The notes beneath the pieces are model-generated. The model searched no databases and had not been told where the DNA came from. It saw only the letters and a program-made list of their open reading frames with translations. A program made the translations under genes and the position numbers. 64,000 nucleotides of DNA, from the NCBI GenBank assembly GCA_018062205.1, contig JAGOSP010000004.1:198-64197 (forward strand), in the 5' to 3' direction. Shown piece by piece: positions 4,646 to 24,661 of this stretch. Source of the DNA: Candidatus Moraniibacteriota bacterium (GTDB lineage Bacteria; Patescibacteriota; Minisyncoccia; Moranbacterales; UBA1568). Numbering within the stretch: the first letter of the stretch is position 1; each line of letters begins with the position of its first letter.

Positions 4646-5194
4646 ATGAATAAAATAATTATAGGAATTATGGTCTTAGGAAGTGCTGTCCTCGGAGGCT
4701 GGTGGTATCTGTCTAGTCAGAGAGCAATGGAAGAAGAGTCTTTGATGGAAAAGAAAGTCATGATGGAAAAAAAGACAGACGGAGTCGTCAAAGATGATGT
4801 CATAATGGAAAAGGAAGAAGACGTCATGATGAAGCAGGAAGAGGATACCGTGATGAAAAAAGAAGAGGGCGCTATGATAGTCAGGGGTGGACAGTATACC
4901 TTGTATGATGCATCAAAGGTTGCTTTCGCCAAGGATGGCAAAGTGGTACTTTTCTTCCGTGCTTCCTGGTGTCCGACTTGTCGTTCTTTGGACGGCGATA
5001 TCAAAGCAAATTTGAGTCAGATTCCACAAAATATTTTGATTCTTGATGTTGATTACGATAAGTCAACAGACCTCAAGAAGCAGTATGGAGTCACGTATCA
5101 GCACACCCTGGTGCAGGTGGATGCTTCAGGAAATATGATTACAAAGTGGTCAGGGAGCGCCGGGCTCAGCGAACTGCTTACTCAAGTAAAGTAG
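4646..5194 (+). CDS. membrane-anchored thioredoxin-like protein with Met-rich repeat linker
   Basis: N-terminal TM anchor. The repeats MEKKVMMEKK / VIMEKEEDVMMKQEEDTVMKKEEGAMI are present. A thioredoxin fold carries a WCPTC active site. RBS AAGGAGGTG. Confidence 0.75.
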   Translation: MNKIIIGIMVLGSAVLGGWWYLSSQRAMEEESLMEKKVMMEKKTDGVVKDDVIMEKEEDVMMKQEEDTVMKKEEGAMIVRGGQYTLYDASKVAFAKDGKVVLFFRASWCPTCRSLDGDIKANLSQIPQNILILDVDYDKSTDLKKQYGVTYQHTLVQVDASGNMITKWSGSAGLSELLTQVK

Positions 5195-5277
5195 TTTTGT
5201 TGTTGGGATAAAAGTAGTACACAGTTGGGACAGTTTCTGCAGAGCTGTTCCCTTGAGTAATATTTTTTCAAAATATC

Positions 5278-7041
5278 ATGACTATTCTTCTTGTATTCGC
5301 ATTTCTTTCGGGCGTCGTGACCATTTTTGCCCCATGTATATGGCCGATACTCCCTATTGTTTTGTCAACAGGTGCAACGGGAGGGGAAAGAAAACCGCTT
5401 GGCATTGTCACTGGTCTCGCTGTAAGTTTTTTGTTGGCAACTCTCACACTTGCTTTTGTGGTACAAATTATTCCGTTTGATCCGGAAATACTCCGCTTGC
5501 TCGCTGTCCTCGTGATTGCTCTTTTGGGTTTGACTTTGATTATTCCAGCTCTAGGAAGTCGGCTAGAGGGTCTCGTGAGCCGGCTGACTTCTTTTGGTGG
5601 ACGATTCACACAAAATGGAGGAACTGGTTTTTGGGGTGGCTTTATTACTGGTTTTGCATTGGGGTTAGTTTGGTCACCCTGTGCTGGGCCAATTTTGGCA
5701 ACTATTGCTACTCTTGCAGCGACTCAGGCAGTGAGCTTTCAAGTGGTTTTGGTCACCCTCGCTTTTGTTTCTGGGGTGGCGGTTCCGTTGTTTGTTTTAG
5801 CTCTTCTGGGAAAGAGAGTGCTCACGAGAACAAGAATATTAGCACCCTATACGAAGCGTATTCAACAGGTATTCGGATTGATTATGATTCTGGCAGCCGG
5901 AGCTATTTATACCGGATATGACAAAATACTCCAAACAAAACTCCTAGATACTTTTCCGGGTTATGAGAGTTTTTTGAATGGGTTGGAAAAAAATGATACG
6001 GTGAAAGAGAGGCTTGATGAGTTGAAGAATACTAATGAGAAGCGAGTTTCTCAGAAGAAAGAAGAGTCGAAAGTAAATATACGAAAAGATCTTCCTGAAT
6101 ACGGACAAGCACCCGATTTTGTTGGGATAGCGCATTGGTTGAATACCGATTCAGCACTAACTATGGAACAGTTGCGTGGAAAAGTGGTACTGATTGATTT
6201 TTGGACCTACAGCTGTATTAATTGTATCCGGACACTCCCGCATGTGACCAGTTGGTATGAAAAATACAAAGACCGGGGATTTGTGGTGATTGGAGTACAC
6301 ACACCAGAGTTTGAATTTGAGAAAAAAACGGCCAATGTGGAAAACGCTTTGGAGCGATACAAAATTCATTATCCGGTGGCTCAGGATAATAATTATGGTA
6401 CATGGCAAGCTTATAATAATCGTTATTGGCCAGCGCATTATTTGATTGATGCTGAAGGAAAAATCCGCGACTCGCATTTTGGAGAAGGCAACTATCAGGA
6501 AACAGAACTGGCCATTCAGAGTTTGCTTGAGGAAGCAGGGAGAGACGTAACTCCTAATTCAACAAGCGTGACCATGGACACTCCTGGAAAAAATAAAACC
6601 CCAGAAACATATTTGGGAAGTGATCGTATGGAGCGATTTTTATCACCTGAACGAGTGACTGGTGAGAAGCAAGTCTTCACGACACCTCCTATTCTCCGGA
6701 AGCACGATTTTGCCTATAGTGGATCTTGGAAAGTTGAATCAGAAAGGGCTTTGGCTTCCAGTAAATCAACACTCACGCTTCGTTTCGAGGGGAAGAAAGT
6801 GTTTTTGGTTCTTGCTCCACCTGAGAATACTTTATCTGGATCTGGAAGTGTCAAAGTTTTTTTGGATCAGAAGCTGATACCCAAAGAAGTGTCCGGTAAG
6901 GATGTTGTGGATGGAAAGGTGACACTAGATGCAGAAAGACTTTACGAGCTTTTTGATGGGAGAGAAATGACCGAAGAACATCTGCTTCATTTAGAATTTG
7001 AAACACCAGGGACCGCGGTGTACGCATTTACTTTTTCTTAA
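5278..7041 (+). CDS. ccdA: CcdA/DsbD-like transmembrane domain fused to TlpA/ResA-like thioredoxin domain (thiol-disulfide electron conduit)
   Basis: TM1 FAPCIWP and TM4 SPCAGP carry the CcdA cysteines. The periplasmic redoxin domain has WTYSCINC (CxxC). A C-terminal extra domain of about 170 aa is present. Confidence 0.8.
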   Translation: MTILLVFAFLSGVVTIFAPCIWPILPIVLSTGATGGERKPLGIVTGLAVSFLLATLTLAFVVQIIPFDPEILRLLAVLVIALLGLTLIIPALGSRLEGLVSRLTSFGGRFTQNGGTGFWGGFITGFALGLVWSPCAGPILATIATLAATQAVSFQVVLVTLAFVSGVAVPLFVLALLGKRVLTRTRILAPYTKRIQQVFGLIMILAAGAIYTGYDKILQTKLLDTFPGYESFLNGLEKNDTVKERLDELKNTNEKRVSQKKEESKVNIRKDLPEYGQAPDFVGIAHWLNTDSALTMEQLRGKVVLIDFWTYSCINCIRTLPHVTSWYEKYKDRGFVVIGVHTPEFEFEKKTANVENALERYKIHYPVAQDNNYGTWQAYNNRYWPAHYLIDAEGKIRDSHFGEGNYQETELAIQSLLEEAGRDVTPNSTSVTMDTPGKNKTPETYLGSDRMERFLSPERVTGEKQVFTTPPILRKHDFAYSGSWKVESERALASSKSTLTLRFEGKKVFLVLAPPENTLSGSGSVKVFLDQKLIPKEVSGKDVVDGKVTLDAERLYELFDGREMTEEHLLHLEFETPGTAVYAFTFS

Positions 7042-7087
7042 AAATAGACTGTTTTAGTCGAGTCATGAGAAATTTTACACAAAATAT

Positions 7088-8335
7088 ATGAAAATATCAC
7101 AGAGAATATGGTTGGTGATATTGGGATTTTCTCTCGCTGTAGGCTTGGTATGGTATGGGAAGTATTCTCAGAAGGTGAGCGATATCAAGATTCCCGGTAT
7201 ACCAAAACAGAATTGTTTGGAGCATAATCAAGAAAAACATATGAAAAAAACACAAGAAGAATTAAGTCAGTATCAGCGTGCCTACTTTGCTGGGGGGTGT
7301 TTCTGGTGCACAGAAAGTGATCTGCAGAAGGCTTCTGGAGTAGTCGAGGTTGTATCGGGGTATGCGGGTGGAAGGGTAGTGAATCCGACATATAGTGATG
7401 TGACGAGTGAGAAGAGCGGACATCGAGAAGCGGTGGAAATCTATTATGATGGAAAGGTAACGAGCTATGAAAATCTCGTGAAGTATCATTTGATGCATAT
7501 TGATCCGACGGATGCAGGCGGGCAGTTTTATGATCGCGGGGAGAGTTATCAGGCAGTGATTTTCTATCGTTCTGAGGAGGAGCGACTTGTAGTCGAGCGA
7601 ACGATACAGGAATTAGACAAAGCAAAAATTTTTGAGAAACCAGTCGCTGTGCGAGTTTTGCCGTATACAAATTTTTATACTGCGGAAGAGTATCACCAGA
7701 ATTATGCTGAGGAAAATACCATTAAGTATTGTGCTTATCGAGAGTCGAGCGGGCGAGATACTTTTTTGAAAAAATATTTTGAAGGGAAAACGTGGGATGA
7801 ATTACTCAGGAAGGGTACGACACAAAAAATAAACGAACCTGTTTCTTTGCAAAGTGATGATATGATTCCCGGAAAACTTGATTTTTCGCAGTATGTAAAA
7901 CCAAGCCAAGCAGAATTGCAGGCTAATCTCACCCCGCTTGAATATGAGGTGACACAAGAAGATGGGACCGAAAGACCATTTCATAATGCCTATAACGAAA
8001 ACCATGCTTCTGGAATTTACGTTGATATTGTCAGCGGCGAACCACTTTTTTCATCAAGCGACAAATATGAGAGTGGCACGGGGTGGCCAAGTTTTGTGAA
8101 GCCAATTGATAACCGGTTTATTGTGGAAAAAGTAGATGCTGGTTTTTTGAGTACGCGCACAGAGATACGGAGTAAATACGGAGATAATCATCTTGGACAT
8201 GTGTTTCCCGATGGGCCAAAGGATAGAGGTGGGATGCGCTACTGTATGAATTCCGCGGCACTTCATTTTATTCCGAAAGAATCCATGGAAAAAGAAGGAT
8301 ACGGAGATTTTCTTTCACAAGTGGATACTCAATAA
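7088..8335 (+). CDS. msrAB: membrane-anchored bifunctional peptide methionine sulfoxide reductase MsrA-MsrB
   Basis: N-terminal TM. The MsrA motif is GCFWC ([13 protein letters not shown]). The MsrB motifs are RYCMNSAAL and GHVFPDGP. Confidence 0.9.
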
Positions 8336-8355
8336 TTGAATTAATTCAAGAATGT

Positions 8356-8727
8356 ATGAATAAATTTCAAGAAGTTCTCAAAATGAGCGGTGTACCGGTA
8401 ATCCTTGCGTCACTGTGTTGTCTTTCACCGGTTATTCTGGTGCTACTGGGAATCTCCTCGGTGAGTTTTGCTTCTTCGCTGAGTGATACTCTGTATGGTG
8501 AGTATAAGTGGGTATTTCGTACGATTGGGTTATTGGCGCTCTTAGGATCACTGGCATACTATTTGTATCGACAGAAAGGAATCTGCTCTCTGGATGCTGC
8601 GAAACGTCGTCGGAATGAGATTATGAATTACATCGCGCTAACCCTTGTTGTTGGAGTATTCGGATATCTTTTTTTCTTGTACGTGGTTGTACACTATCTT
8701 GGTGTCTGGCTTTCAATTTGGAAATAA
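8356..8727 (+). CDS. small membrane protein with intramembrane Cys-Cys motif (MerT-like TM1)
   Basis: VPVILASLCCLSPVILVLLG resembles the CC-containing first helix of MerT-type thiol/metal transporters. Three TM segments. Confidence 0.45.
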   Translation: MNKFQEVLKMSGVPVILASLCCLSPVILVLLGISSVSFASSLSDTLYGEYKWVFRTIGLLALLGSLAYYLYRQKGICSLDAAKRRRNEIMNYIALTLVVGVFGYLFFLYVVVHYLGVWLSIWK

Positions 8728-8846
8728 TCTTTTTTGTTATTTTTTGTTCAGTTGCACTGGATGAGCACAAGAAGAAGCAGGCGGGAATTGTATACTCGAT
8801 GTGGTTTTTTGTGTGAGTACGAGCGTAAAATCAGTAGACTTCTTTA

Positions 8847-8880
8847 TAAAAAAAATTGCCCCGAGTACAAACCTCAGGGC
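8847..8880 (-). terminator. Rho-independent terminator of the GDPGP1-like gene
   Basis: On the minus strand, GCCCUGAG-GUUUGUA-CUCGGGGC (8 bp stem) is followed by UUUUUUUU. Confidence 0.6.
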
Positions 8881-8903
8881 GAAATCCAATCAAGGAGCAT
8901 TGG

Positions 8904-10040
8904 TCAGTGCGTTGTCATGCGGGAAACATTGGGAGGATTGACTCCTTTTAGAATACTCCACATTCGTTGGAACGTTATCTCGCCGGAATTAATTGCTGCA
9001 TCCTCTTCCGGCGTAGACAAAATAAACTCACCCATGACTTCCATTCCACCAACGATACCTTGGAGGCCAGCAGACCTCGAGTAGCGATAATTTCGCGGGA
9101 CGAGGTAGAATGTGACTTGCGATTTTTCGTGAATTGCGATGAGATTGGCCGAAGCGGCATTGCCCACCGTGTTACTCCACTCACGCATGCGTCCGATGGT
9201 GGCGCGAATCGTGTTTTCGCGGTTACCGGTGATACGGAAGGTGGTCAGCGGGTAATGCTGCGTGTCTACAACAAGCACTGACGGGGAAATATCATCAGCT
9301 GGTGTGCCGATGGATTCATTGGCCTTTTGCTCGATTCTCCTGGCTGCGTGTTGGATAGGGAAAAGCCCATGACCAGCAGGACTCATGAACGCCTGAAAAT
9401 GAAGGTGCTCTTCGATGCTGGCTCCAGCACCAACTCCGTTGTAAAAGCAGATCCATTCGGGTAGTTTGACGGCGAGATCATAGAGATCTGTGACTATCCG
9501 GGTCATCTTCCCCAATTCCTCTTCGGGTTTCCCATGCCATGATTGCGGTGCGTGTTCGGTGGAGGCGATTGTCATATGTGTCGGCATGAAGGGGAATGGG
9601 TTGCACAGTGCCGCATAGCTATTCCCGTTTACATCGAAGAGAAAGTAAAACTGCACTCCTCTTGATTGCCAACCAACGTTTTCGTGACAGATAAAACATT
9701 TGGTGGAACGGGTGGTTTTAGTTGCGACTCCCTCGGGCGGAGTAACTCGTCCGTTTCCTTTGAAACGAAGGCGGCGATTGGGATTATATTGCCCAATAAA
9801 GAAGGCATCGTCGCCTCCATGGCACTGGAAGTAGCGCACGGCAGTCAGGTCGTCAATGATGAATCCACTGTCCATTTGTTGTGCATGCAGGAGTCTCAGG
9901 GCATCCGAAAGCGGATGCTTGTTGAGTATTGCCTGAAGTTCGGCACGGTTCCGTAGATAGATGGAATCAGTCCATCTCCCCATCGTAGAACGCCCATCGG
10001 GATTTTGATAATCCGGAAGCAGGACAATTTTTGTAGTCAT
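8904..10040 (-). CDS. HIT-superfamily nucleotide-sugar phosphorylase-like protein (GDP-L-galactose/GDP-D-glucose phosphorylase GDPGP1/VTC2-like)
   Basis: HIT variant motif HLHFQAF (HxHxQ, diagnostic of the GDPGP1/VTC2 branch). An upstream segment (CNPFPFMPTHM) is analogous to the VTC2 substrate loop. The gene is GC-rich (about 52%) relative to its neighbours. Confidence 0.55.
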   Translation of the reverse strand: MTTKIVLLPDYQNPDGRSTMGRWTDSIYLRNRAELQAILNKHPLSDALRLLHAQQMDSGFIIDDLTAVRYFQCHGGDDAFFIGQYNPNRRLRFKGNGRVTPPEGVATKTTRSTKCFICHENVGWQSRGVQFYFLFDVNGNSYAALCNPFPFMPTHMTIASTEHAPQSWHGKPEEELGKMTRIVTDLYDLAVKLPEWICFYNGVGAGASIEEHLHFQAFMSPAGHGLFPIQHAARRIEQKANESIGTPADDISPSVLVVDTQHYPLTTFRITGNRENTIRATIGRMREWSNTVGNAASANLIAIHEKSQVTFYLVPRNYRYSRSAGLQGIVGGMEVMGEFILSTPEEDAAINSGEITFQRMWSILKGVNPPNVSRMTTH

Positions 10041-10241
10041 TCTGTTCTCCTTGAGAAGAATCGACGAATCGATTCGGTTGTCAAAAAAACTTCACAGTGA
10101 AGGTACCTCGGTTCTGTTATTTTGTCAATCTGATTTTTTTAGGGGTTTACTCAATATTTGATTTAAGGGAGATGCTGATAGAGGAGTGAAATTTATGCTA
10201 GAATAAGTATGATAAATAATGAGATAGAAAGAAAAAATACT

Positions 10242-10679
10242 ATGGCAACAACCAGCATTTATCTCAATTTTTCTCGGAATACTGAAGAGGCTTTTCGTTT
10301 TTACCAGTCTGTTTTTGGAGGGGAATTTGTGGGAGGAATTCACCGCATGGGTGAGGTGCCGACACAAGAGGGTCAAACACCAATACAAGAAGAAGATAAA
10401 GACCTTGTCATGCATATTGCACTGCCGATTCTGGGAGGATGTCTGCTTATGGGAACTGATGCACCAGAATCAATGGGATTTAGATTGAATCAGGGAAATA
10501 ATGTGTATATTAATCTTGAGCCAGATACGCGCGATGAAGCCGATGCATTGTTTACGAAGCTCTCTCAGGGAGGGAGGGTAGAAATGCCACTTCGGGAAAT
10601 GTTTTGGGGGGATTATTTCGGTTCATGCGTTGATAAGTTCGGCATTCAGTGGATGTGTAATTGCTCACAGAAAGGATAG
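10242..10679 (+). CDS. VOC (glyoxalase/PhnB-like, 3-demethylubiquinone-9 3-methyltransferase family) protein
   Basis: MATTSIYLNF..AFRFYQSVFGG..MHIAL..YINLE..FWGDYFGSCVDKFGIQWM is the typical PhnB-like VOC pattern. Confidence 0.7.
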   Translation: MATTSIYLNFSRNTEEAFRFYQSVFGGEFVGGIHRMGEVPTQEGQTPIQEEDKDLVMHIALPILGGCLLMGTDAPESMGFRLNQGNNVYINLEPDTRDEADALFTKLSQGGRVEMPLREMFWGDYFGSCVDKFGIQWMCNCSQKG

Positions 10680-10682
10680 TCT

Positions 10683-11102
10683 ATGAAATCACAACTCACA
10701 GTAGAAGTGTTTGTACTTGTCTCTGTCGAAAAAGCTTGGCAATACTGGATTTTACCAAAATACATAACGCAGTGGTGCTTTGCTTCCGATGACTGGTCTG
10801 CACCGAGAGCGGAGAACGAACTTCGTGTTGGAGGGAAGCTTAAAACACGAATGGAGGCCAAAGACGGGAGCGGAGGATTCGACTTTGAGGGAATATACAC
10901 CGTTGTCGAAGAGAAGAAGAAACTGGAATATCTACTTGTTGGTGATGATACAAGAAGGGTGATAGTCGAATTTTTGGAACAAGATGGCGGGTGCATAATC
11001 AGGGAAACGTTTGATGCCGAAGAAATGAATTCGCTCGAAATGCAAAAGAATGGCTGGCAATCAATCTTGAATAATTTTAAGAAGCTTGTTGAAACAGCTT
11101 AA
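10683..11102 (+). CDS. SRPBCC/AHSA1 (activator of Hsp90 ATPase homolog-like) domain protein
   Basis: A 139-aa protein with the SRPBCC pattern (VEKAWQYWILPKYITQWCF...GGKL..RMEAKDGS..FEGIYTVVEE). Confidence 0.7.
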   Translation: MKSQLTVEVFVLVSVEKAWQYWILPKYITQWCFASDDWSAPRAENELRVGGKLKTRMEAKDGSGGFDFEGIYTVVEEKKKLEYLLVGDDTRRVIVEFLEQDGGCIIRETFDAEEMNSLEMQKNGWQSILNNFKKLVETA

Positions 11103-11174
11103 AAAAACTGTCTTCGTTGACAAGCAGATAGATCAAAGGGGAAGAAAAATCTTTGAGAGTAATGTGGGGAATAA

Positions 11175-11212
11175 AAAAACGACCAAGCTAGATGAGCGTT
11201 AGTCGTTTTTTT
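11175..11212. terminator. bidirectional hairpin between convergent genes
   Basis: AAAAAAACGAC-loop-GTCGTTTTTTT has A-run/T-run symmetry. The stem is short. Confidence 0.35.
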
Positions 11213-11226
11213 ATTCGTTTGTGTGA

Positions 11227-11652
11227 TTATTCTACAATAAGTGTTCCCCACTGGCCTTTTGCTCTATGGCCAGGTTTTGAGCAGTAGAAGACGAATTCGC
11301 CTGTTTTGTTAGCGGTAAACTCAATGACAACCTCTTCGTTCAGCGGGAGCTCTTTCTTGACGCCGAATTCATCTATCACAAAGTCATGCATGCCCTTGGT
11401 ATTGGTGGCTTTGATGTGTATGGTATCGCCTGCTTTCACGCGCATTTCTTTGAGCGAAAACCAGACGCCAGTTTCGTCGTAATAGGCAGTAGTGGAAAAT
11501 TCTTTGACCGACTCTGATATTTCCGTTGAGGATTTTTCCTGAGACATGCCATTTTTTTCAGTCTTTGTCGTCGTTGGTTTTTCATTTTGAAAAAAGAAAT
11601 AGCCAGCGAACGCAATACCAACGATAAGTATCAGTCCAATTATTTTTCCCAT
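11227..11652 (-). CDS. membrane-anchored cupredoxin (plastocyanin/azurin-like blue copper protein)
   Basis: N-terminal TM. Type-1 Cu ligand pattern: H (GMHDF), then C and H in FYCSKPGH. The axial position appears to be Gln (GQWG) instead of Met. Confidence 0.65.
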   Translation of the reverse strand: MGKIIGLILIVGIAFAGYFFFQNEKPTTTKTEKNGMSQEKSSTEISESVKEFSTTAYYDETGVWFSLKEMRVKAGDTIHIKATNTKGMHDFVIDEFGVKKELPLNEEVVIEFTANKTGEFVFYCSKPGHRAKGQWGTLIVE

Positions 11653-11932: not shown

Positions 11933-13102
11933 ATGAAACGGTATCGGCGTGGATTGGTAGCGCTTTCGGCAGATCCAATAACCTTTGGGCATATAGACTT
12001 GATTCGACGAGCAAAGGATTTATGTGACTCTCTCGTGATTCTTGTGGCAAATAATGACCTGAAAGTTGGGAGTTATCTGTTCACTCTTGAAGAGCGAGTT
12101 GCGATAACGAAGGAAGCAGTTCAACAGGCAGGAATAGCAAATATCTATGTTATTGGATCGCAAAACCTTCTTGTTGATGTCTATATCCGCGAAGACTGCG
12201 ATATTGTTTTCCGTGGTATTCGAAACGAAAAGGATGCCGCCTTTGAAAAGGAGCAAATGGAGCTTCATGTACATATCTTGCCAGACCTCCAAGGCCGTAT
12301 AGAGTTTTTGGAATCACACGAAGAATATCGAATGATTTCCTCATCGCTTGTGAAGGCATTCGTACGGAGTCATGTGGACGTGTCTCGTTTTGTGCCAGCT
12401 TTTGTGAAGCAGCTTCTTGAGGAACGAATTTGTCAGCAGTACATTCTTGCTGTTACTGGATGTCAGGCGAATGGAAAGACTTATGTTGCGGAATCGCTTG
12501 CGAGAAATTTGGTCGAAAGTGGAATCGAATCGCATGTGATCAGCATTGATGTTTTACTCCGGACTCTCTATGACGAAGATTCGCTGGGGGCGCAGAAGAT
12601 CCGTTTAGCACTCTCTCAGTTGTTTGGGGACGATGTGTTGACTGCTGATCAGAAACAGGTGCGTCGATCGGTACTTAAAAAACGCATCTTTGATTCCGAA
12701 CAGGATACAGAGAAAAGAGAACTGCTGCATTCCCTAGTCGAGCCGCATATTGATCGTTTGTATCGGGAAGCACTAGCAGGGAAAAAGGGATTGATTATTT
12801 TTGAATGGGCGCAGCTCGCAGAAATGAAGATGTCTTTCTGGTCAAACCATCAGGTCATTGTTGTAACAAGCGATGACCAGAGATTGTTGGCGGAAATGAG
12901 AGAAATATCTTCGGAAAATCAATCGCAAATGGCAAATTTTCAGTGGAGTACTGAGGAAAAAATCAGGGCACTCTATCAGGCCGCGAACGAAGCGATGCAC
13001 GGTACAGTAGTCTCTTACACGAATCGAGTTGGTGACGAGGAATCAATGAATCGTCTCGCTCAAACAGTGCGAAAAATATTCCCAGCACTTGGGATGGTTT
13101 GA
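11933..13102 (+). CDS. coaD: bifunctional phosphopantetheine adenylyltransferase / dephospho-CoA kinase (CoaD-CoaE fusion)
   Basis: The N-terminal PPAT domain has (T/H)xGH as DPITFGHIDLIRRA. The C-terminal P-loop (GCQANGKT) and the DPCK-like layout (LFGDDVL..LKKRIFDS..HSLVEPHI..VIVVTSDDQRLLAEM) match CoaE. RBS AGAGGA. Confidence 0.75.
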   Translation: MKRYRRGLVALSADPITFGHIDLIRRAKDLCDSLVILVANNDLKVGSYLFTLEERVAITKEAVQQAGIANIYVIGSQNLLVDVYIREDCDIVFRGIRNEKDAAFEKEQMELHVHILPDLQGRIEFLESHEEYRMISSSLVKAFVRSHVDVSRFVPAFVKQLLEERICQQYILAVTGCQANGKTYVAESLARNLVESGIESHVISIDVLLRTLYDEDSLGAQKIRLALSQLFGDDVLTADQKQVRRSVLKKRIFDSEQDTEKRELLHSLVEPHIDRLYREALAGKKGLIIFEWAQLAEMKMSFWSNHQVIVVTSDDQRLLAEMREISSENQSQMANFQWSTEEKIRALYQAANEAMHGTVVSYTNRVGDEESMNRLAQTVRKIFPALGMV

Positions 13103-13113
13103 CGGAGGAAATC

Positions 13114-13905
13114 ATGGATATTGGTCAGTATGAAATTCTGAGAAAAATCGGAGAGGGAAGCTTTGGGCGAACCTTCGAAGGTCGGCACCACATTCTTGGT
13201 ATACCAGCCTGCATTAAACAGGAGCGAACTGGAGACCCTGTCTATCAGAGAATGTTTCGGGAGGAAGCGGAACTGCTCGCAAAGGTGCATCATATCTCGC
13301 TTCCGGCATTTCGCGATTATTTTGAGCTTCCGGATTTTGGTCAGGTGCTCGTGATGTCATATATTTCCGGCGAAAATCTTCGGAAACGGGTTGATCGGGA
13401 AGGCGCGATTGATGATGAGCATATCGCATGGATTCTTCAGCGTACACTCGACGCTTTATCATATCTTCATTTTCAGTGCATCGTGCACTGCGATGTGAAG
13501 CCAGAAAATCTGATTCTTCATTTGGAGGAACATAATGTTGTCTTGGTAGATTTCGGATTGGGAGTGATTCACTCCGATGCAAAGACGCTGGCTAAGGGGG
13601 GAACAGAAGCCTATATGCCTCCAGAATTCGGAAATGGGTTACCGCCAATCCCGGCATCAGATATTTATTCGATTGGGAAAACCGCAGTGTTTCTTTCGGG
13701 TGGCAATCCGATGACTGGGGCGCTTCCAAAAGACATGCACCCGCTGTTTGCAGAGTGCATACGAGCGATGATTCGTAAGGATCCATTCGCTCGGCCGCAG
13801 AATGCGCGCGATGTCAGTCGCCGCATAACAGAAATCCGTCGCCAAATTTTTGGTCGAACGGAAACAACCGAGTTGTTTAAACTTCGTGAGAGGAGTATAT
13901 CATGA
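13114..13905 (+). CDS. Hanks-type Ser/Thr protein kinase (kinase domain only)
   Basis: Gly loop GEGSFG. A Lys-containing ACIK segment, catalytic loop HCDVKPEN, and DFG. RBS GGAGG 5 nt upstream. Its stop overlaps the next gene start (ATGA). Confidence 0.85.
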   Translation: MDIGQYEILRKIGEGSFGRTFEGRHHILGIPACIKQERTGDPVYQRMFREEAELLAKVHHISLPAFRDYFELPDFGQVLVMSYISGENLRKRVDREGAIDDEHIAWILQRTLDALSYLHFQCIVHCDVKPENLILHLEEHNVVLVDFGLGVIHSDAKTLAKGGTEAYMPPEFGNGLPPIPASDIYSIGKTAVFLSGGNPMTGALPKDMHPLFAECIRAMIRKDPFARPQNARDVSRRITEIRRQIFGRTETTELFKLRERSIS

Positions 13906-14942
13906 GTGGCGCATTTGGATGGGCACGGGCAAATTCAGCGGATGCTGGCACGAGAGTGCATGGCCCGGACAATTTCGCGGGAGCCAAAGGAGCATATGGC
14001 GGTGGGGCGAAACGAGTCGATATCGGATTTGATTCGAATGATGGGAGAAGTCGTAAGATCGACGCATTCGCAAACAAGCTCGGACCAAAAACGATTCCGA
14101 ACGGGAAGAGTACGCTTTCGAGTACGGCAGCCAATGTTGTCATGGTAGTGCTCGATGTGACAGGGTCGATGCAGGAGTGGCCGCAAGAGATTTTCAGGCG
14201 GCTCCCGCTTCTCTATACCGATCTTGTCAGGTATCTCGGATCGGATGACTTGGAAGTCCTCTTCATCGCCCATGGTGATGCGAGTGGATCAGACCGGTAT
14301 CCGGTGCAGGTAGGACGATTCGCACGTGGCGCGGAACTCGATGCAGTCCTTGCTTCGCTGGAACGCGAGGGCGGCGGGAGTGGCCGCGAATCACAACGTG
14401 AATCACAAGAGCTCATTGCTTACTACATGGTTGAGCGTATCGATACGACGTCGGCACAGAATGTCTTTGTCTTCTTCGTCACCGATGAAGCTGGCTATGA
14501 CACAGTGACTGCTTCGCAAGTTGATCAGCTTCTGGGAGTCCCGATGAATCATGAGCTTATCAGGACAGCGGATGTCTTTGCGAAGCTTTCGATTACGGCG
14601 GATGTGTATGCAGTGGTATGCGATACGAAGTCGTATGACAGTCCTCTGGCTCCAACCTGGTGGAAGAAAATGCTTGGTTCGGAACAAGTACTTCTGCTCG
14701 ATGATGCACGGCGGATTGTCGATGTATTGCTTGGGGTGATGGCTGGAAAAGTGGGGAAAGATCATGAATTTGATCAAGATCTCACAAGGCGTCAGGTCGG
14801 TATGCCACATGGGTATGCCAATATCGCAAATGTGCACAAGACGCTGGCAATTGTCCGAAGAGGTGGGAAAACAAGGCTTCTCCTGCCCCCGGATGTATCA
14901 GGGTCGCATAGCAAGAAGACGCGCTCCTTGCTGGATGATTGA
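13902..14942 (+). CDS. von Willebrand factor A (vWA) domain protein (TerY-like) with Gly-rich N-terminus
   Basis: MIDAS motif VVLDVTGSM. Translationally coupled to the kinase. RBS AGGAG. The gene is GC-rich. Confidence 0.75.
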   Translation: MSGAFGWARANSADAGTRVHGPDNFAGAKGAYGGGAKRVDIGFDSNDGRSRKIDAFANKLGPKTIPNGKSTLSSTAANVVMVVLDVTGSMQEWPQEIFRRLPLLYTDLVRYLGSDDLEVLFIAHGDASGSDRYPVQVGRFARGAELDAVLASLEREGGGSGRESQRESQELIAYYMVERIDTTSAQNVFVFFVTDEAGYDTVTASQVDQLLGVPMNHELIRTADVFAKLSITADVYAVVCDTKSYDSPLAPTWWKKMLGSEQVLLLDDARRIVDVLLGVMAGKVGKDHEFDQDLTRRQVGMPHGYANIANVHKTLAIVRRGGKTRLLLPPDVSGSHSKKTRSLLDD

Positions 14943-15012
14943 AAGAAATGAAAACGCGGCACTCCCTGGAATCTCAGGGGTGCCGCTTTTTTTGCCTACC
15001 AATTATGCGTGT

Positions 15013-15570
15013 CTATTCCCTGGTGAACTTCGCGAATTCACGCTCCCATGTTTCAAGAACGAGAGAGGAGATTGCTGGGTTGAGGAGTAGTTCCAAATCG
15101 CCGGGTCGCCTTTCCAAAAGGGCATCTCGGACTTCAGTTGCCGAAACTTTGGGGGTTTCTTTTCCAGCGAATCGGTTGATGATATGGAACGGTTTTCGTC
15201 CCTCCTCAATGAGCACACTCATTTCTTCTCTGCATCCGCCAACGAAGACTGTTCTTTCGGGGGCAAATCCAATGGCGCTGAGTATGCTGTCGATCGCCAT
15301 GAGCCATGACGAATTATCGTTATCAAAATCCGGCAAGGGGACTATGCTGAGTTCGGACTCGGGAAAAACTTTTCGCAGAAAAGATACTCGCTCTGCATAA
15401 CTAAAAAAATGCCGGATCGTTCGTGCATGCGAGGCACTTCCGATGAAAACGACACAGCGACCACTCCTCTCTATCATGCTGCGAATCATGGCCTCGTGAC
15501 CAGTATGAACTGGATTGAATCTGCCAACATAGGCCATTTCTGGCTTTTTAGTGGGTTTTTTAGTTGCCAT
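15013..15570 (-). CDS. nadM: nicotinamide-nucleotide adenylyltransferase, archaeal/NadM-type cytidylyltransferase fold
   Basis: GRFNPVHTGH matches the NMNAT (H/T)xGH signature (GRFQPFHxGH). 186 aa from the ATG at 15570, which has an AAGGAG RBS. The longer track ORF start at 15780 is rejected. Confidence 0.7.
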   Translation of the reverse strand: MATKKPTKKPEMAYVGRFNPVHTGHEAMIRSMIERSGRCVVFIGSASHARTIRHFFSYAERVSFLRKVFPESELSIVPLPDFDNDNSSWLMAIDSILSAIGFAPERTVFVGGCREEMSVLIEEGRKPFHIINRFAGKETPKVSATEVRDALLERRPGDLELLLNPAISSLVLETWEREFAKFTRE

Positions 15571-19993: not shown

Positions 19994-20232
19994 GGGGCGA
20001 GAAATCAGAAACGGATAAAAGATTTCCCTTTTATACAAGCCTTTTTATGTGCACAAGAATGAGCACGAAAGAGAAGTAAGATCTAAAATGATCAAAAATG
20101 AGAGAATCATCTAAAATTATATAATATTTTACGTATTTTGTAAAGAAAAAATATAAATATAGAAAGAAGGCATTTCTTGGCGATTGTTTCTTGGCAAGAG
20201 ACTTGGTACAATGGTGGTATAAGAAAAAAATT

Positions 20233-20478
20233 ATGTGTCTTGCGATACCCGGAAAAATTGAGGTGGTGGAAGGAAAAAAAGCGATGGTAAATTTCGGAGG
20301 AATCAAGCGTCGCGTTGATCTTTCCTTTCTCGATGATGCAGCCCAAGATGATTGGGTTTTGGTGCATGTTGGTTTTGCTCTTCAAAAAATAGATGAGGCA
20401 TCGGCACGAGAGGCGTACCATTTGCTTGCCGATACCCGTCCTGCTGATCTTGATGCAGAATTAAAAGCAATGTCATGA
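20233..20478 (+). CDS. hypC: [NiFe] hydrogenase maturation factor HypC
   Basis: Begins MCLAIPGKI (the essential Cys2). 81 aa. An extended -10 (TGgTACAAT) lies upstream at about 20203. Confidence 0.9.
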   Translation: MCLAIPGKIEVVEGKKAMVNFGGIKRRVDLSFLDDAAQDDWVLVHVGFALQKIDEASAREAYHLLADTRPADLDAELKAMS

Positions 20479-21494
20479 AAAGTCCGCTTCTTGCTGCCAT
20501 CGAGACTCTAGCGAAAGATATGGGTGAAGTGCGACTTATGGAAGTATGTGGCGGACATACGAACACGGTGATGCGTTTTGGTTTGCGGGAGGTCTTACCT
20601 TCGAATGTTCGTTTAATTTCTGGTCCTGGATGTCCAGTGTGTGTGACATCACAGCACGATATTGATTCCATGGTGGAATTGGCGCTTTCGGGGGTCCCAG
20701 TCGCAACGTATGGCGATATGATTAATGTGCCAGGGACAAAGATGAGCCTGGTAGATGCGCAAAACCTCGGAGCGGATGTGCGTATGGTGTATTCGATTGA
20801 TCAGATTATTGATGAGAAAGAGCGGGTATTTTTTGCCGTTGGGTTTGAGACAACGACACCGATGACTGCCAAGCTTCTCTCGGCGGGGATCAAAGTTTTT
20901 TGCGCACACAAGGTGATGCCGCCAGCCATGCGGGCGCTGACACAGGAAATGAATCTCGATGGTTTTATTGATCCGGGCCATGTTTCAGCTATTATCGGGA
21001 GCGATGTGTGGGGGAATATGGATATCCCATTGCCTCAAGTTATTTCTGGTTTTAAACCGGATCAACTCCTGCATGCAATTTTGACTTTGCTTGAACTGAT
21101 TAAGAATAAGGAAATACGGGTAGTAAATGACTATCCGGAGGTGGTGTTTCCGGGAGGCAATCCGATTGCGAAACGAATGATTAAAGAAACGTTGAAGCCA
21201 GTGGATTCTGAATGGCGAGGTATGGGAGTAATTCCTCTTTCAGGGCTAGCGCCGATCGATGAACGACTGGATGCCCGCCTGATTTATGCGGATCTTTTTA
21301 AGGATATCGTGAGCGTTGAACACCCCGAATGTCGCTGTGGAGAAATTGTTCGTGGCTTGGTTGAGCCAAGACAATGCCCTCTTTTTGGGACAGTTTGCAC
21401 GCCAGAGAATCCAAAGGGCGCTTGTATGGTGAGCGATTCTGAGGGAGCCTGTGCCATTGCTTATAAATATGGAAAAAGTTTAGCTGAAGTATGA
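20475..21494 (+). CDS. hypD: [NiFe] hydrogenase maturation factor HypD
   Basis: Motifs MEVCGGHT and GPGCPVCVT. Confidence 0.9.
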   Translation: MKSPLLAAIETLAKDMGEVRLMEVCGGHTNTVMRFGLREVLPSNVRLISGPGCPVCVTSQHDIDSMVELALSGVPVATYGDMINVPGTKMSLVDAQNLGADVRMVYSIDQIIDEKERVFFAVGFETTTPMTAKLLSAGIKVFCAHKVMPPAMRALTQEMNLDGFIDPGHVSAIIGSDVWGNMDIPLPQVISGFKPDQLLHAILTLLELIKNKEIRVVNDYPEVVFPGGNPIAKRMIKETLKPVDSEWRGMGVIPLSGLAPIDERLDARLIYADLFKDIVSVEHPECRCGEIVRGLVEPRQCPLFGTVCTPENPKGACMVSDSEGACAIAYKYGKSLAEV

Positions 21495-22519
21495 AGAAAA
21501 AAGATGAATCATGTCTGACGGGACAATGCCCGACACCGGTTGAACGCCCTTTGCATACGATTAAATTAAGTGAGGGGAGTGGTGGTCGTGAAATGCAAGC
21601 ACTTATTGGAACGCTCCGCGGACAGCTCGGCCCGACGAATAACTGGAAACACAGCGGGGATGATGGTGCGACCTTCTCTCTTGGAGATCAGCAATTGGTG
21701 TTTACCACGGATGCTTATGTGGTAACGCCGATTTTTTTTCCGGGAGGAAATATTGGGAAGATTGCATTTTGCGGTACGGTAAATGATTTAGCAGTGATGG
21801 GTGCTCGTCCGATTGGAATTTCTCTTTCACTGATTTTAGAGGAGGGATTTTCCAAGGAAGAATTTACGACCATTATCGACACCATCGGGAAACTGTCACG
21901 GGAAACTGGAATTCCAGTGGTGACTGGTGATACTAAGGTCGTTGAACGTGGGGGTATTGATAAAATCATCATCAATACGAGTGGCGTCGGATTGGCAGTG
22001 CGAGTACTCGAAGCACCACTCGAAGTGGGAGATGCAATAATTGTGTCTGGTGGTCTGGGCGAACATGGAGCAGCGCTACTTGCTCGACGCTTTGAACTGG
22101 AAACAACCCTGCAAACCGACAGCAAACCACTGCACGAAGAATTAGCAGTGATTGGTGACTATATCAAACAGGCGAAAGACATTACTCGGGGTGGGCTTGC
22201 CGCTATTCTGAATGAGCTTTCAGAGAAAAATTCGGTAGCTCTTACGGTTGAAGAAGCAGTTGTTCCATTGCATGACGAAGTTCGGGCTTTAACGGAGATG
22301 CTTGGTATTGATGTCTATAGTCTGGCGAGCGAAGGGCGCTTCGTTTGTATTGTGGCACCAGAACAGGAAAAGCGTGTACTTGAGATACTCCGCACCTTTA
22401 ATCCTTCGGCAGTGCAGATTGGAAGAGTGTCTGCTGGACGAGGAGTTTCCGTCCAGACAGTATATGGTAAGAAAATTCTCTCAATGCCTTCAGGGAATAT
22501 TGTTCCGCGGATTTGCTAG
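21491..22519 (+). CDS. hypE: [NiFe] hydrogenase maturation factor HypE
   Basis: AIR-synthase-like fold. N-terminal SGGREMQALI. C-terminal PRIC. Confidence 0.9.
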   Translation: MKKKDESCLTGQCPTPVERPLHTIKLSEGSGGREMQALIGTLRGQLGPTNNWKHSGDDGATFSLGDQQLVFTTDAYVVTPIFFPGGNIGKIAFCGTVNDLAVMGARPIGISLSLILEEGFSKEEFTTIIDTIGKLSRETGIPVVTGDTKVVERGGIDKIIINTSGVGLAVRVLEAPLEVGDAIIVSGGLGEHGAALLARRFELETTLQTDSKPLHEELAVIGDYIKQAKDITRGGLAAILNELSEKNSVALTVEEAVVPLHDEVRALTEMLGIDVYSLASEGRFVCIVAPEQEKRVLEILRTFNPSAVQIGRVSAGRGVSVQTVYGKKILSMPSGNIVPRIC

Positions 22520-24661
22520 ATATGCGGCGATTTGACCAAAACTGATGCCGCCATCACCAGAAGGAATTTCTTTGTTGACGAGAACGCCTTTGGAAAGAAA
22601 GTATTCAGTCATGATACGGTTATAAGCGCAGCCTCCGGCCCACACAATGGGCTTTTTTGTTTGGATGGCAATGGAATAAAGACCAATGGCTAGATATTTT
22701 TGTGCGGTGGCAGCAAGGCGGTATTTGTCCTCGTGTAAGTGTTCGATGAGGTAATGAAAGAGGGGAGTGGTTCGCAACACAGAATCTTTGATGACGGGGG
22801 TGATATCAAATGGCTCGGTAGAATATGCTTCTAGAAGCATGGCTGGTCGGCCATCATAAGTCCTCTCATCGCAGAGATTAAGGAGGGCAGCAGTCGCATC
22901 TAAAATTCGGCCGCAACTGGAGGTGAGAGGCGCATTGAATTTTTCGACAAATTGTTTTTCGAGGAGGGTGAGTTCGGAGGAAGAAAAGTGAGAATTGAGG
23001 AATGGACTACTCTCTTCAGGGGAAAGAAAGGACCGAAGAAGCGCATAGAGCATGCGGTGAGGAAATCGTGCGGCAGCATCACCACCAAGTTGCGGGTGGA
23101 GTTCGAGATGTCCAATGCGTGTGTGATTTTCAAATACCTCTCCACCCCAGAGCGTGCCATCATCTCCATAGCCAAGTCCGTCGCAAATGATAGCTGCAAA
23201 ATCGCTTAGCTGATGCTCGGCAGCAGCTGCATATGCATGGGCTCGGTGGTGTTGAATGGGAACGAGTGGAATGCTCAGTTGATTGGCAAGGTCGTGTCCA
23301 TAGAGAGACGTTTGATAATTTGGATGTGCATCACAAAGAATAGCCTGGGGCATGATATGAGCGTAAGAGAGGAAGCGATCAAGAGCAGCTCGATAGCGAT
23401 TGAAAGTGTCGGGATGAGTGGTGTTACCGATGTGCTGGGAGACAATAACACGCCCCTGTCCGTCATAGAGCGCGAATGTATTGTTCATTTCGGCACCAAG
23501 AGCGAGAAGGGGAGTTGTTATTGGCGAATGAATAATGATGGATTGAGGAACAAAGCCGCGGCTGCGTCGGATAAGTAAGGGTGTCTTGGCAATAACTTTG
23601 ACAACAGAATCATCGGTAGCATTGATAATCTCTCGATTATGGTCGAGTACCAGAGGGACAAATTGTTCTTCTCGCGTGGTGGTGAGTGGCGCGTGAGCCA
23701 GATTGGAAGAGGTGCAGATAAGCGGATAGGGATAATGTTCAAAGAGAAGGATATGGAGCGCAGTCGAAGCAAGCATAATGCCGAGAGTGTCGAGCTCGCT
23801 CACTTCTGGGGATTGGGTATTTTTTTTCACAAGAACGATAGGACGTTTTGGCGAAAGAAGTTGTTGCTCTTCTTCGAGAGTTGGACGAGAAATCATCTGC
23901 GCCATAGCGAGGTCTCGACAGAGAACTGCATAGGGTTTATGGATTCTTCCGGTAATGAGATTGAGCTTGTTTTTGGTTTTCTTCTGGGTATTACAGAATA
24001 AATGAAATCCACCAACTCCTTTGATGGCTACAACTTCTCCTTGAGAGAGCGCCTGCCCAACATGGTGGAGTATGTCTTGTTCAGCTGTTTTGGTTGAAGC
24101 AGCGCCATCTTGAAAGAGGGTGAGTTTTGGTCCACATGTGTGACAGGCGATGGTTTGAGCGTGGAATCTTCGACTTGTTGGATTGCGATACTCGTCACTA
24201 CAGTCAGGGCAGAGAGGAAAAATATGCATGGAGGTTGTTGCTCGGTCATAGGGACTTGATTTCGCCATAGTGAAGCGCGGACCGCAAAGAGTGCAGGTGA
24301 GAAAGAAATAATGGTGTCGGCGATTTTCTGGATTGCCAAGTTCTAAGAGGCAATCATCACACAAGAAAAAATCTGGTGGAATTTCAGAGAAACCTACGCC
24401 GGTGCTTGCGCGTATAGTGAAATCAGTACAGTGTTCCTTGGAGACTTCTTTCTGAATGGTATCAATACGCATGTGAGATGGAAGTTGATCAAGAATATTT
24501 TGAAAGGCTACGGTATCATTGACGACTACCACAACACCTTCTCCGGTGTTTTGCACGAAACCAAAAAGTTTCTCTTTGATACAGGCATTATAAATAAAAG
24601 GTCGGAATCCAACTCCCTGAACGATACCTTTAATAAGAAATTGGTGGAAAAGATGATTCAT
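22490..24661 (-). CDS. hypF: carbamoyltransferase HypF
   Basis: N-terminal acylphosphatase domain (VQGVGFRPF). Two Zn-finger-like CxxC pairs. YrdC and Kae1-like domains. Its 3' end overlaps hypE by 30 nt. Confidence 0.9.
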   Translation of the reverse strand: MNHLFHQFLIKGIVQGVGFRPFIYNACIKEKLFGFVQNTGEGVVVVVNDTVAFQNILDQLPSHMRIDTIQKEVSKEHCTDFTIRASTGVGFSEIPPDFFLCDDCLLELGNPENRRHHYFFLTCTLCGPRFTMAKSSPYDRATTSMHIFPLCPDCSDEYRNPTSRRFHAQTIACHTCGPKLTLFQDGAASTKTAEQDILHHVGQALSQGEVVAIKGVGGFHLFCNTQKKTKNKLNLITGRIHKPYAVLCRDLAMAQMISRPTLEEEQQLLSPKRPIVLVKKNTQSPEVSELDTLGIMLASTALHILLFEHYPYPLICTSSNLAHAPLTTTREEQFVPLVLDHNREIINATDDSVVKVIAKTPLLIRRSRGFVPQSIIIHSPITTPLLALGAEMNNTFALYDGQGRVIVSQHIGNTTHPDTFNRYRAALDRFLSYAHIMPQAILCDAHPNYQTSLYGHDLANQLSIPLVPIQHHRAHAYAAAAEHQLSDFAAIICDGLGYGDDGTLWGGEVFENHTRIGHLELHPQLGGDAAARFPHRMLYALLRSFLSPEESSPFLNSHFSSSELTLLEKQFVEKFNAPLTSSCGRILDATAALLNLCDERTYDGRPAMLLEAYSTEPFDITPVIKDSVLRTTPLFHYLIEHLHEDKYRLAATAQKYLAIGLYSIAIQTKKPIVWAGGCAYNRIMTEYFLSKGVLVNKEIPSGDGGISFGQIAAYLANPRNNIP

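What the first reader, a model, noticed from the sequence alone, without database searches (positions are those of the whole stretch)
13114..14942. Translationally coupled Ser/Thr kinase plus vWA (TerY-like) dyad in a GC-rich island, directly behind a coaD-coaE fusion
A kinase-domain-only Hanks kinase (HCDVKPEN, DFG) ends in TGA overlapping the ATG of a vWA protein with an intact MIDAS (DVTGSM). Both genes are about 52% GC, against roughly 40% for neighbouring housekeeping genes. The dyad sits 11 nt after the CoaDE stop. Kinase-vWA(-PP2C) sets are known as TerY-P-type signalling/stress or conflict modules, and here no PP2C gene is adjacent. The nearest phosphatase-like gene is a calcineurin-like phosphoesterase at 30227, so this may be a reduced or variant dyad.
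Basis: partly seen in the sequence, partly recalled or inferred. Interest (0 to 1): 0.65.

Follow-up and report, generated by a model that had tools for sequence, protein, structure and literature searches.

The report
Kinase–vWA pair coupled to CoA enzyme
A protein kinase and a metal-binding adaptor protein sit in one operon with the last CoA-synthesis enzyme, and the same undescribed gene pair recurs in hundreds of large phages, other tiny bacteria and archaea, always beside a nucleotide-using enzyme.

Summary

The interpretation needs correcting in three ways.
- **Not TerY-P.** There are no Pfam VWA or PADLOC hits, no PP2C gene, and no zinc-ribbon or OB fusion on the kinase.
- **Not a recent GC island.** The kinase is 48% GC and the vWA gene 53%, against a gene mean of 44%. 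The vWA gene also tends to be GC-richer than its surroundings in relatives with local GC of 33-64%. The locus is syntenic across Moran- and Uhrbacteria.
- **coaDE is the conserved third gene, not a bystander.** About 20 distinct loci carry CoaDE>kinase>vWA, mostly with 4-nt overlaps.

The vWA family has no Pfam model and at least 1,371 clusters. It sits in three module types:
- CoaDE + active kinase, in CPR bacteria and a 402-kb phage.
- (J-domain-)active kinase + vWA + a pyruvate-kinase-like barrel, in phages, archaea and spirochaetes.
- J-domain pseudokinase + vWA + a PurA-like enzyme, in phages including about 190 Bxz1-like mycobacteriophages.

I found no description of this module in the searchable literature. 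The most likely mechanism is a kinase/adaptor pair that regulates an adjacent nucleotide-using enzyme; this is inferred, not shown.

The parts
11933..13102 (+). CoaD (PPAT)-CoaE (DPCK) fusion gene, first gene of the operon; 389 aa from ATG 11933 (an alternative TTG lies at 11909)
   Evidence: Pfam CTP_transf_like plus CoaE. TIGR01510 coaD scores 105.9 bits against a cutoff of 103.3, while the CoaE half falls below the NCBIfam cutoff. The PPAT motifs SADPITxGH and ISSSLVKA and the P-loop GxxAxGKT are conserved. This gene sits directly upstream of kinase>vWA in about 20 distinct loci.
13104..13109 (+). GGAGGA Shine-Dalgarno in the 11-nt coaDE-kinase spacer
   Evidence: Read from the sequence. 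In orthologues the kinase start instead overlaps the coaDE stop by 4 nt.
13114..13905 (+). Kinase-domain-only Hanks Ser/Thr kinase, non-RD type (HCD), 263 aa
   Evidence: Pfam Pkinase 6.9e-33. The G-loop, K35, the alpha-C Glu, HxDxKxxN, DFG and PPE are intact and invariant in 21/21 CoaDE-type orthologues. The nearest solved structures are PknA and Aurora kinases, at about 1e-21.
13902..14942 (+). vWA-fold MIDAS protein of a family with no Pfam model, 346 aa. It has an N-terminal MSGAFGW motif, a disordered linker, a vWA core at about 75-268, C-terminal helices at 269-321, and a tail ending KKTRSLLDD.
14956..14993 (.). Intrinsic terminator hairpin plus U7, shared with the convergent downstream gene; it ends the operon
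   Evidence: RNA fold of -26.3 kcal/mol, z -5.4, with 0/200 shuffles as stable.
15013..15570 (-). NMNAT-like small nucleotidyltransferase, convergent with the vWA gene; a possible associated gene
   Evidence: NCBIfam NMNAT-family hits, all below cutoff. Relatives are convergent downstream in other Moranbacteria. They lie directly upstream and co-directional with the module in an archaeon (L093) and in Chondromyces (L092).

Best explanation
coaDE, the kinase gene and the vWA gene form one transcription unit that ends at a strong terminator.

The kinase and the vWA protein are an obligate, co-inherited pair. The cytoplasmic vWA protein uses its MIDAS metal site, and its conserved N- and C-terminal short motifs, to dock a partner. 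It is probably also a substrate of the kinase, as ArnB is for ArnC.

The pair regulates the nucleotide-using enzyme encoded beside it, by phosphorylation or by controlled assembly. Here that enzyme is the PPAT/DPCK fusion that completes CoA, and possibly also the neighbouring NMNAT-like enzyme.

Shown: the gene structure, the fold, motif conservation, co-inheritance, and the partner-enzyme pattern. Inferred: physical interaction, phosphorylation targets, and control of the enzyme.
For: - **Operon structure.** There is an ATGA overlap, an 11-nt spacer with a Shine-Dalgarno, and a terminator after the vWA gene.
- **Conserved order.** CoaDE>kinase>vWA recurs in about 20 distinct loci, down to 32-36% vWA identity, mostly with 4-nt overlaps.
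- **Same strand, same order elsewhere.** The vWA family is flanked by a kinase-like gene upstream and an enzyme downstream in phages, archaea, a spirochaete and a myxobacterium.
- **Partner correlates with kinase state.** PurA-like goes with a degenerate kinase in 37/37. PK-like goes with an intact kinase in 18/18. CoaDE goes with an intact kinase in 21/21. Retention of a dead kinase fold argues that binding to the vWA protein is the core function.
- **Co-inheritance.** Mantel r is 0.91 between kinase and vWA divergence.
- **Conserved sites.** The MIDAS and the catalytic residues are invariant.
- **Conserved terminal motifs.** The N-terminal motif is conserved and the C-terminal [TK][RK]SLL motif is sometimes duplicated.
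- **Precedent.** The C terminus of the ArnB vWA protein carries the sites phosphorylated by the kinase ArnC (PMC6509490, PMC12852372).
Against: - No interaction, phosphorylation or expression data exist.
- A complex model could not be run.
- CoaDE fusions also occur without the dyad, in 6 of 15 distinct informative loci. The enzyme therefore does not need the pair.
- Adjacency within one CPR lineage could be inherited synteny rather than functional coupling.
- The three partner enzymes (PPAT/DPCK, PK-like, PurA-like) share only nucleotide use, so 'regulates the neighbour' is a loose unifying idea.
Confidence: 0.45

Rival explanations
1. A phage-derived takeover or counter-defence module. The pair and its enzyme manipulate host adenylate, NAD or CoA pools or chaperones during infection. 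The CPR chromosomal copy is a domesticated or remnant version.
For: - 267 IMG/VR contigs, many of 100-435 kb, encode the vWA family.
- About 190 cluster C mycobacteriophages and the 485-kb phage LR745208 carry it.
- A 402-kb contig with a T4 gp9/10-like baseplate gene carries CoaDE>kinase>vWA>ADP-ribosylglycohydrolase.
- Phage versions carry a J domain that would recruit host Hsp70.
- NMNAT-like, NAD synthase and ADP-ribosylglycohydrolase neighbours fit NAD-related conflict.
Against: - The window locus has no phage genes nearby.
- It is syntenic across Moran- and Uhrbacteria at 39-77% identity.
- Its GC tracks the host genome.
- The J domain is absent from the CPR version.
- This rival concerns origin and is compatible with the best explanation for present function.
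Confidence: 0.2
2. A general-purpose Ser/Thr signalling pair, with the kinase plus a vWA scaffold or substrate, whose targets lie elsewhere in the cell. The link to coaDE is inherited gene order only.
For: - CoaDE fusions exist without the dyad.
- Other kinase-vWA pairs such as ArnB/ArnC control unrelated processes.
- CPR genomes are compact, so operons mix functions.
Against: - Outside CPR the same vWA family again sits next to a nucleotide-using enzyme, either PK-like or PurA-like. It also repeatedly sits next to an NMNAT-like gene in unrelated lineages.
- The enzyme type correlates perfectly with the kinase state.
Confidence: 0.2
3. A reduced TerY-P-type stress or anti-phage conflict module.
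For: - It has the kinase plus vWA architecture.
- The kinase matches PADLOC kinase models (mad6, PD-T4-6), though these are generic Hanks-kinase matches.
Against: - The vWA protein has no PADLOC hit even at E<=1, and no Pfam VWA hit.
- There is no PP2C in the window.
- The kinase has no zinc-ribbon or OB fusion.
- There is no effector or defence-island context.
- The locus is vertically conserved next to housekeeping genes.
Confidence: 0.07

Closest known systems
ArnB (vWA) with the Hanks kinases ArnC/ArnD, and ArnA (FHA), in the Sulfolobus archaellum regulatory network
   Same: - A cytoplasmic vWA protein with a C-terminal helical region is encoded with Hanks kinases.
- Its C-terminal part carries the phosphosites (PMC6509490).
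   Different: - There is no FHA partner and no beta-sandwich domain.
- The sequence family is different.
- The partner here is a metabolic enzyme, not a motility regulator.
- The family is found mainly in phages and CPR bacteria.
TerY-P triad (TerY vWA + PP2C + Ser/Thr kinase fused to a zinc ribbon or OB fold)
   Same: A Hanks kinase is encoded with a MIDAS-bearing vWA protein.
   Different: - There is no PP2C.
- The kinase has no C-terminal zinc ribbon or OB fold.
- The vWA protein is not detected by PADLOC or Pfam VWA models.
- There is no defence or tellurite context.
PrkA/YeaG - YeaH (DUF444 vWA) - YcgB (SpoVR)
   Same: - A kinase gene is followed directly by a vWA gene.
- DUF444 is the only Pfam family with any sequence signal, at 1.5e-3. 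hhalign gives 86.6% probability over 48 columns around the DV(S/T)GSM MIDAS.
   Different: - The kinase is a plain Hanks domain, not an AAA+-fused PrkA.
- The DUF444 score is below cutoff (18 bits against 27).
- There is no SpoVR gene.
- Similarity is confined to the MIDAS region.
MoxR AAA+ - vWA activase pairs (CbbQO, NorQD, and the jumbo-phage MoxR-vWA pair)
   Same: - A vWA/MIDAS adaptor is encoded with a partner that could remodel a specific target enzyme.
- The NorD vWA domain is among the fold hits.
- Phage versions carry a J domain that could recruit Hsp70 in place of MoxR.
   Different: - There is no AAA+ gene.
- The partner is a kinase or pseudokinase.
- The analogy is an inference only.

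Membership tests
Hanks-type (eukaryotic-like) Ser/Thr protein kinase | Pfam Pkinase domain above the gathering score | tested here: met
   114.6 bits against a cutoff of 31.7, E 6.9e-33.
Hanks-type (eukaryotic-like) Ser/Thr protein kinase | Catalytic residues: Gly-rich loop, VAIK Lys, alpha-C Glu, HxD...N catalytic loop, DFG, APE | tested here: met
   GEGSFG, ACIK, E51, HCDVKPEN, DFG and PPE are all present. All are invariant in 21 CoaDE-type orthologues. HCD rather than HRD makes it a non-RD kinase.
von Willebrand factor A (vWA) fold | Rossmann-like alpha/beta vWA fold | tested here: met
von Willebrand factor A (vWA) fold | MIDAS: DxSxS after beta1, Thr/Ser before alpha3, Asp after beta4 | tested here: met
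   D85-V-T87-G-S89 and D195 are invariant across 37 divergent members. S168 is nearly invariant and its neighbour E167 is invariant. All lie at the expected loop positions in the model. The first Ser is replaced by Thr.
von Willebrand factor A (vWA) fold | Match to a Pfam VWA-clan sequence model | tested here: not met
   0 of 37 members hit any VWA model at E<=0.01, and 7 hit DUF444 weakly.
TerY-P triad | TerY-like vWA protein | tested here: not met
   No PADLOC family at E<=1 and no Pfam VWA hit.
TerY-P triad | Adjacent PP2C phosphatase | tested here: not met
   No PP2C in the annotated +/-10 kb. phmmer with a CPR PP2C_2 seed found none in the 64-kb window. A PP2C_2 gene lies 4 kb away in one relative only.
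TerY-P triad | Kinase fused C-terminally to a zinc ribbon or OB fold (definition from PMC10542128) | tested here: not met
   The 263-aa protein is a kinase domain only.
PrkA-YeaH-YcgB system | DUF444 (YeaH) membership of the vWA protein | tested here: not met
   18.1 bits against a cutoff of 27. hhalign similarity is limited to 48 MIDAS-region columns.
PrkA-YeaH-YcgB system | PrkA-type AAA+-kinase and a SpoVR partner | tested here: not met
   The kinase is Pfam Pkinase only. No SpoVR is present in the annotated neighbourhood.
ArnA/ArnB/ArnC module | FHA-domain partner, and a vWA + beta-sandwich + helix-bundle architecture | tested here: not met
   No FHA gene within +/-10 kb. The model shows the vWA core plus C-terminal helices and no beta-sandwich.
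MoxR-vWA activase pair | Adjacent MoxR-type AAA+ ATPase | tested here: not met
   No AAA+ MoxR gene in this neighbourhood or in any related neighbourhood examined.
CoaD-CoaE bifunctional enzyme (upstream gene) | PPAT and DPCK domains with catalytic motifs | tested here: met
   TIGR01510 scores 105.9 against 103.3, and Pfam CoaE scores 52.6 against 27. The HxGH-type, ISSS and P-loop motifs are conserved. The CoaE half is below the NCBIfam equivalog cutoff.

The most novel reading that the evidence does not exclude
The kinase/pseudokinase-vWA pair is a dedicated activase or switch for nucleotide-handling enzymes (PPAT/DPCK, NMNAT-like, PK-like, PurA-like).

It would be functionally analogous to MoxR-vWA activases. 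Remodelling or switching would come from phosphorylation in the active-kinase types, and from J-domain-recruited Hsp70 in the phage types.

Large phages would use it to take control of, or restore, host ATP, NAD or CoA pools, for example against nucleotide-depleting defences. CPR bacteria and some archaea would have fixed it to gate the last steps of cofactor salvage.
Probability: 0.15. Interest if true: 0.85.

Novelty: new variant of a known kind. Interest (0 to 1): 0.6.

Why it matters
Hanks kinase plus vWA pairs are known (TerY-P, ArnB/ArnC, PrkA/YeaH). This is a separate vWA family with no Pfam model, and PHROG lists it as 'unknown function'. It is always wired to a nucleotide-using enzyme, and it switches between active kinase and J-domain pseudokinase according to which enzyme that is.

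The family spans ultra-small CPR bacteria, archaea and hundreds of large phages. That includes about 190 cultured Bxz1-like mycobacteriophages, whose host M. smegmatis is genetically tractable.

For CPR biology it points to post-translational control of CoA (and perhaps NAD) completion in organisms that depend on salvage. For phage biology it defines a conserved three-gene module of unknown role that can be tested now.

Tried and rejected
- **TerY-P identity.** Rejected: no PADLOC or Pfam VWA hit, no PP2C, and no kinase fusion.
- **Recent GC-rich island.** Rejected: the excess is modest, it recurs in relatives over a wide range of local GC, and the locus is syntenic.
- **Metallophos at 30227 as the missing phosphatase.** No relative lies near any other dyad, and no phosphatase recurs across loci.
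- **DUF444/YeaH membership.** Similarity is limited to the MIDAS region.
- **'CoaDE exists only with the dyad'.** Rejected: 6 of 15 distinct informative CoaDE loci lack it.
- **Genome-contig scan with the broad alignment A1.** It failed for lack of a conserved stretch. The rerun with the CPR-only alignment gave only 13 loci.
- **Literature.** Nine searches ran and one further query was rejected on syntax. They covered Bxz1/adenylosuccinate/kinase, vWA plus J domain plus phage, PurA-like phage, pseudokinase plus J-domain, vWA/NMNAT neighbourhoods, TerY/PP2C and ArnB/ArnC, plus a term search of the jumbo-phage review. None turned up a description of the module.
- **PDB sequence search with the vWA protein.** No hits.

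Full report
**What is in the window**

The window comes from a Candidatus Moranbacteria (CPR/Patescibacteria) genome. An identical locus is in GCA_017991955.1.

ORF 13114-13905 encodes a 263-aa protein that is a protein-kinase domain and nothing else (Pfam Pkinase 6.9e-33).
- It carries GEGSFG, ACIK, the alpha-C Glu, HCDVKPEN, DFG and PPE.
- The HCD in place of HRD makes it a non-RD kinase.
- Its nearest solved relatives are PknA and Aurora kinases.

The kinase TGA overlaps the ATG of ORF 13902-14942 (ATGA), which is preceded by a GAGGAG Shine-Dalgarno. The kinase ATG itself lies 11 nt after the stop of a CoaD-CoaE fusion gene (11933-13102), with GGAGGA in the spacer. A strong hairpin plus U7 follows the second gene directly, at 14956-14993 (-26.3 kcal/mol, z -5.4). 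The three genes therefore look like one operon.

**Is the second protein a vWA protein?**

Sequence models do not say so.
- There is no Pfam VWA-clan hit for it, or for any of 36 divergent relatives. The only signal is a weak, sub-threshold DUF444 match.
- There are no PADLOC or PDB sequence hits.
- The one clear sequence match is PHROG 2971, 'unknown function' (9e-27).

Structure settles the question.
- An AF2 model built on 37 homologues has pLDDT 82, with the core above 90.

The alignment shows W7, D85-x-T87-x-S89, D126, G159, E167 and D195 invariant, and S168 nearly invariant. D85/T87/S89, S168 and D195 fall at the three MIDAS loop positions of the model.

The protein also has three other features:
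- a strictly conserved extreme N-terminal motif (MSG[AN][FY]GW in CPR), followed by a variable disordered linker;
- C-terminal helices at 269-321;
- a disordered tail ending in a recurrent, sometimes duplicated [TK][RK]SLL(D) motif.

It has no signal peptide or membrane segment, so it is cytoplasmic.

**Is the pair conserved?**

In CPR genomes and metagenomic contigs I found about 20 distinct loci with CoaDE>kinase>vWA, at vWA identities from 77% down to 32-36%. Most have 4-nt start/stop overlaps. In Moranbacteria an NMNAT-like nucleotidyltransferase is always convergent downstream, as at 15013-15570 in this window.

Starting instead from the CoaDE side, 9 distinct informative loci have the dyad directly downstream and 6 do not. 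CoaDE is therefore an ordinary enzyme to which the pair has been added in a subset of lineages.

Kinase and vWA divergences are tightly correlated (Mantel r 0.91, 0/2000 permutations).

**The family is mainly a phage module**

A scan of IMG/VR found 267 contigs encoding the vWA family, many of 100-435 kb. GenBank phages add about 190 Bxz1-like (cluster C) mycobacteriophages and the 485-kb phage LR745208. In Bxz1 the genes are gp247 'kinase', gp248, gp249 and gp250 'adenylosuccinate synthetase'. A profile search of 1.84 billion cluster representatives gives 1,371 clusters at E<=1e-10.

Nearly every locus with enough flanking sequence shows the same plan: a kinase-like gene upstream and/or an enzyme gene downstream, on the same strand. 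There are three types.

| Type | Upstream | Downstream or partner enzyme | Found in |
|---|---|---|---|
| 1 | CoaDE, then active kinase | none (CoaDE is the partner) | CPR bacteria; a 402-kb contig with a T4 gp9/10-like baseplate gene, where ADP-ribosylglycohydrolase follows the vWA gene |
| 2 | active kinase, usually with an N-terminal J domain | ~300-aa pyruvate-kinase-like barrel | phages, an archaeon (with an NMNAT-like gene directly upstream), archaeal-like contigs, a spirochaete. Chondromyces lacks the kinase and has NAD synthase and ADP-ribosylglycohydrolase nearby |
| 3 | J-domain protein with a degenerate kinase fold | PurA-like enzyme | phages, including Bxz1-like mycobacteriophages |

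The correlation between partner enzyme and kinase state is complete in my sample:
- PurA-like with a degenerate kinase: 37/37.
- PK-like with an intact kinase: 18/18.
- CoaDE with an intact kinase: 21/21.

Bxz1 gp247, annotated as a kinase, lacks the catalytic Asp.

**The GC-island idea**

The kinase is 48.0% GC and the vWA gene 52.9%, against a window gene mean of 44.4% (sd 3.5). Four other genes in the window are at or above 50%.

Across 20 loci, the vWA gene is GC-richer than its surroundings in 17 where local GC runs from 0.33 to 0.64. The excess is 5-9 points in most CPR loci and about 1-6 points in the phage and archaeal ones. In two (L099, L001) it equals or exceeds its locale but not the adjacent kinase or coaDE gene. 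It is below its locale only in Chondromyces, at 0.72.

The gene's GC therefore follows its host genome. The residual excess is best explained by the Gly/Ala/Arg/Asp-rich protein. Together with the synteny, this argues against recent acquisition.

**Comparison with known systems**

- **TerY-P.** As defined in PMC10542128, it needs a TerY vWA, a PP2C, and a kinase fused to a zinc ribbon or OB fold. None of these is met.
- **PrkA-YeaH-YcgB.** It shares the order kinase-then-vWA and a DV(S/T)GSM MIDAS. The similarity is confined to 48 columns, the kinase type differs, and there is no SpoVR.
- **ArnB/ArnC.** This is the best experimental precedent. ArnB is a cytoplasmic vWA protein with a C-terminal helical part whose C terminus carries the sites phosphorylated by a neighbouring Hanks kinase (PMC6509490, PMC12852372). 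Here, however, there is no FHA partner and no beta-sandwich.
- **MoxR-vWA activases.** They are a functional analogy for the J-domain versions only.
- **Prior description.** The jumbo-phage comparative review does not describe this module, and none of the literature searches found it.

**Mechanism**

Shown:
- one operon;
- an intact kinase;
- a MIDAS-bearing vWA protein with conserved terminal short motifs;
- co-inheritance of the two genes;
- a nucleotide-using enzyme as the constant third element;
- the kinase fold retained even when catalytically dead.

Inferred:
- The kinase (or pseudokinase) and the vWA protein form a complex.
- The vWA protein is the adaptor and probably a substrate.
- The pair controls the neighbouring enzyme, here the PPAT/DPCK that completes CoA and perhaps the NMNAT-like enzyme.

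I give the pair being a functional unit about 0.85 probability, and control of the adjacent enzyme about 0.4-0.45.

The rivals are a phage-derived takeover or counter-defence role, a general signalling pair with merely inherited synteny, and a TerY-P-like defence role. The defence role is the weakest.

**Verdict**

The TerY and GC-island interpretation is not supported. The locus is one member of an undescribed three-flavour module shared by large phages, CPR bacteria and archaea. I class it as a new variant of the known kinase-plus-vWA theme. Its function is unproven, but it is directly testable in mycobacteriophages.

Noticed in passing
window 20107-24661: Hydrogenase maturation genes (HypC, HypD, HypE-like AIRS, HypF) sit in this Moranbacteria genome. 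This is unusual content for a small CPR genome. No hydrogenase structural gene was looked for.
   Followed up: no
window 4222-11652 and 32239-34491: A dense run of redox and metal genes lies upstream of the operon: thioredoxin, a DsbD-AhpC fusion, an MsrA-MsrB fusion, MerT, DUF4922 (GC 0.506), glyoxalase-like, AHSA1 and cupredoxin. An HMA P-type ATPase lies further on. Cation-efflux genes also recur near the dyad in relatives.
   Followed up: partly
window 1-64000: GC skew is positive in every 1-kb bin across the whole window, and most genes are on the + strand. This is consistent with a single replichore leading strand.
   Followed up: no
window 613-1860, 36045-36779, 47412-48194: Three ORFs with no Pfam hit and above-average GC (0.508, 0.489, 0.540). 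The last is the GC-richest gene in the window, richer than the vWA gene.
   Followed up: no
L081 3607-7386 (Mycobacterium phage Bxz1 gp247-gp250): The gene annotated 'kinase' or 'serine/threonine kinase' in about 190 cluster C mycobacteriophages has a J-domain HPD motif. It lacks the catalytic Asp (H-A-T-N) and has DWC instead of DFG, so it is probably a pseudokinase. gp250 is labelled '2-aminooxy adenylosuccinate synthetase' in RefSeq, but it scores far below the PurA and PurZ cutoffs.
   Followed up: partly
L001 8871-9776; L092 8003-10699: ADP-ribosylglycohydrolase lies directly after the vWA gene in a 402-kb phage contig. NAD synthase plus ADP-ribosylglycohydrolase lie beside the module in Chondromyces. 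Together with the NMNAT-like genes this forms a recurring NAD/ADP-ribose theme.
   Followed up: partly
L107 4110-5777: The Spirochaetales member of the vWA family carries a roughly 230-aa C-terminal extension made of Lys/Thr-rich 'KKTT(A/T)' repeats.
   Followed up: no
window 14939-15400 (+): A 153-aa + strand ORF overlaps the minus-strand NMNAT-like gene. It is almost certainly spurious, although one public annotation calls a 150-aa gene there (L087).
   Followed up: no
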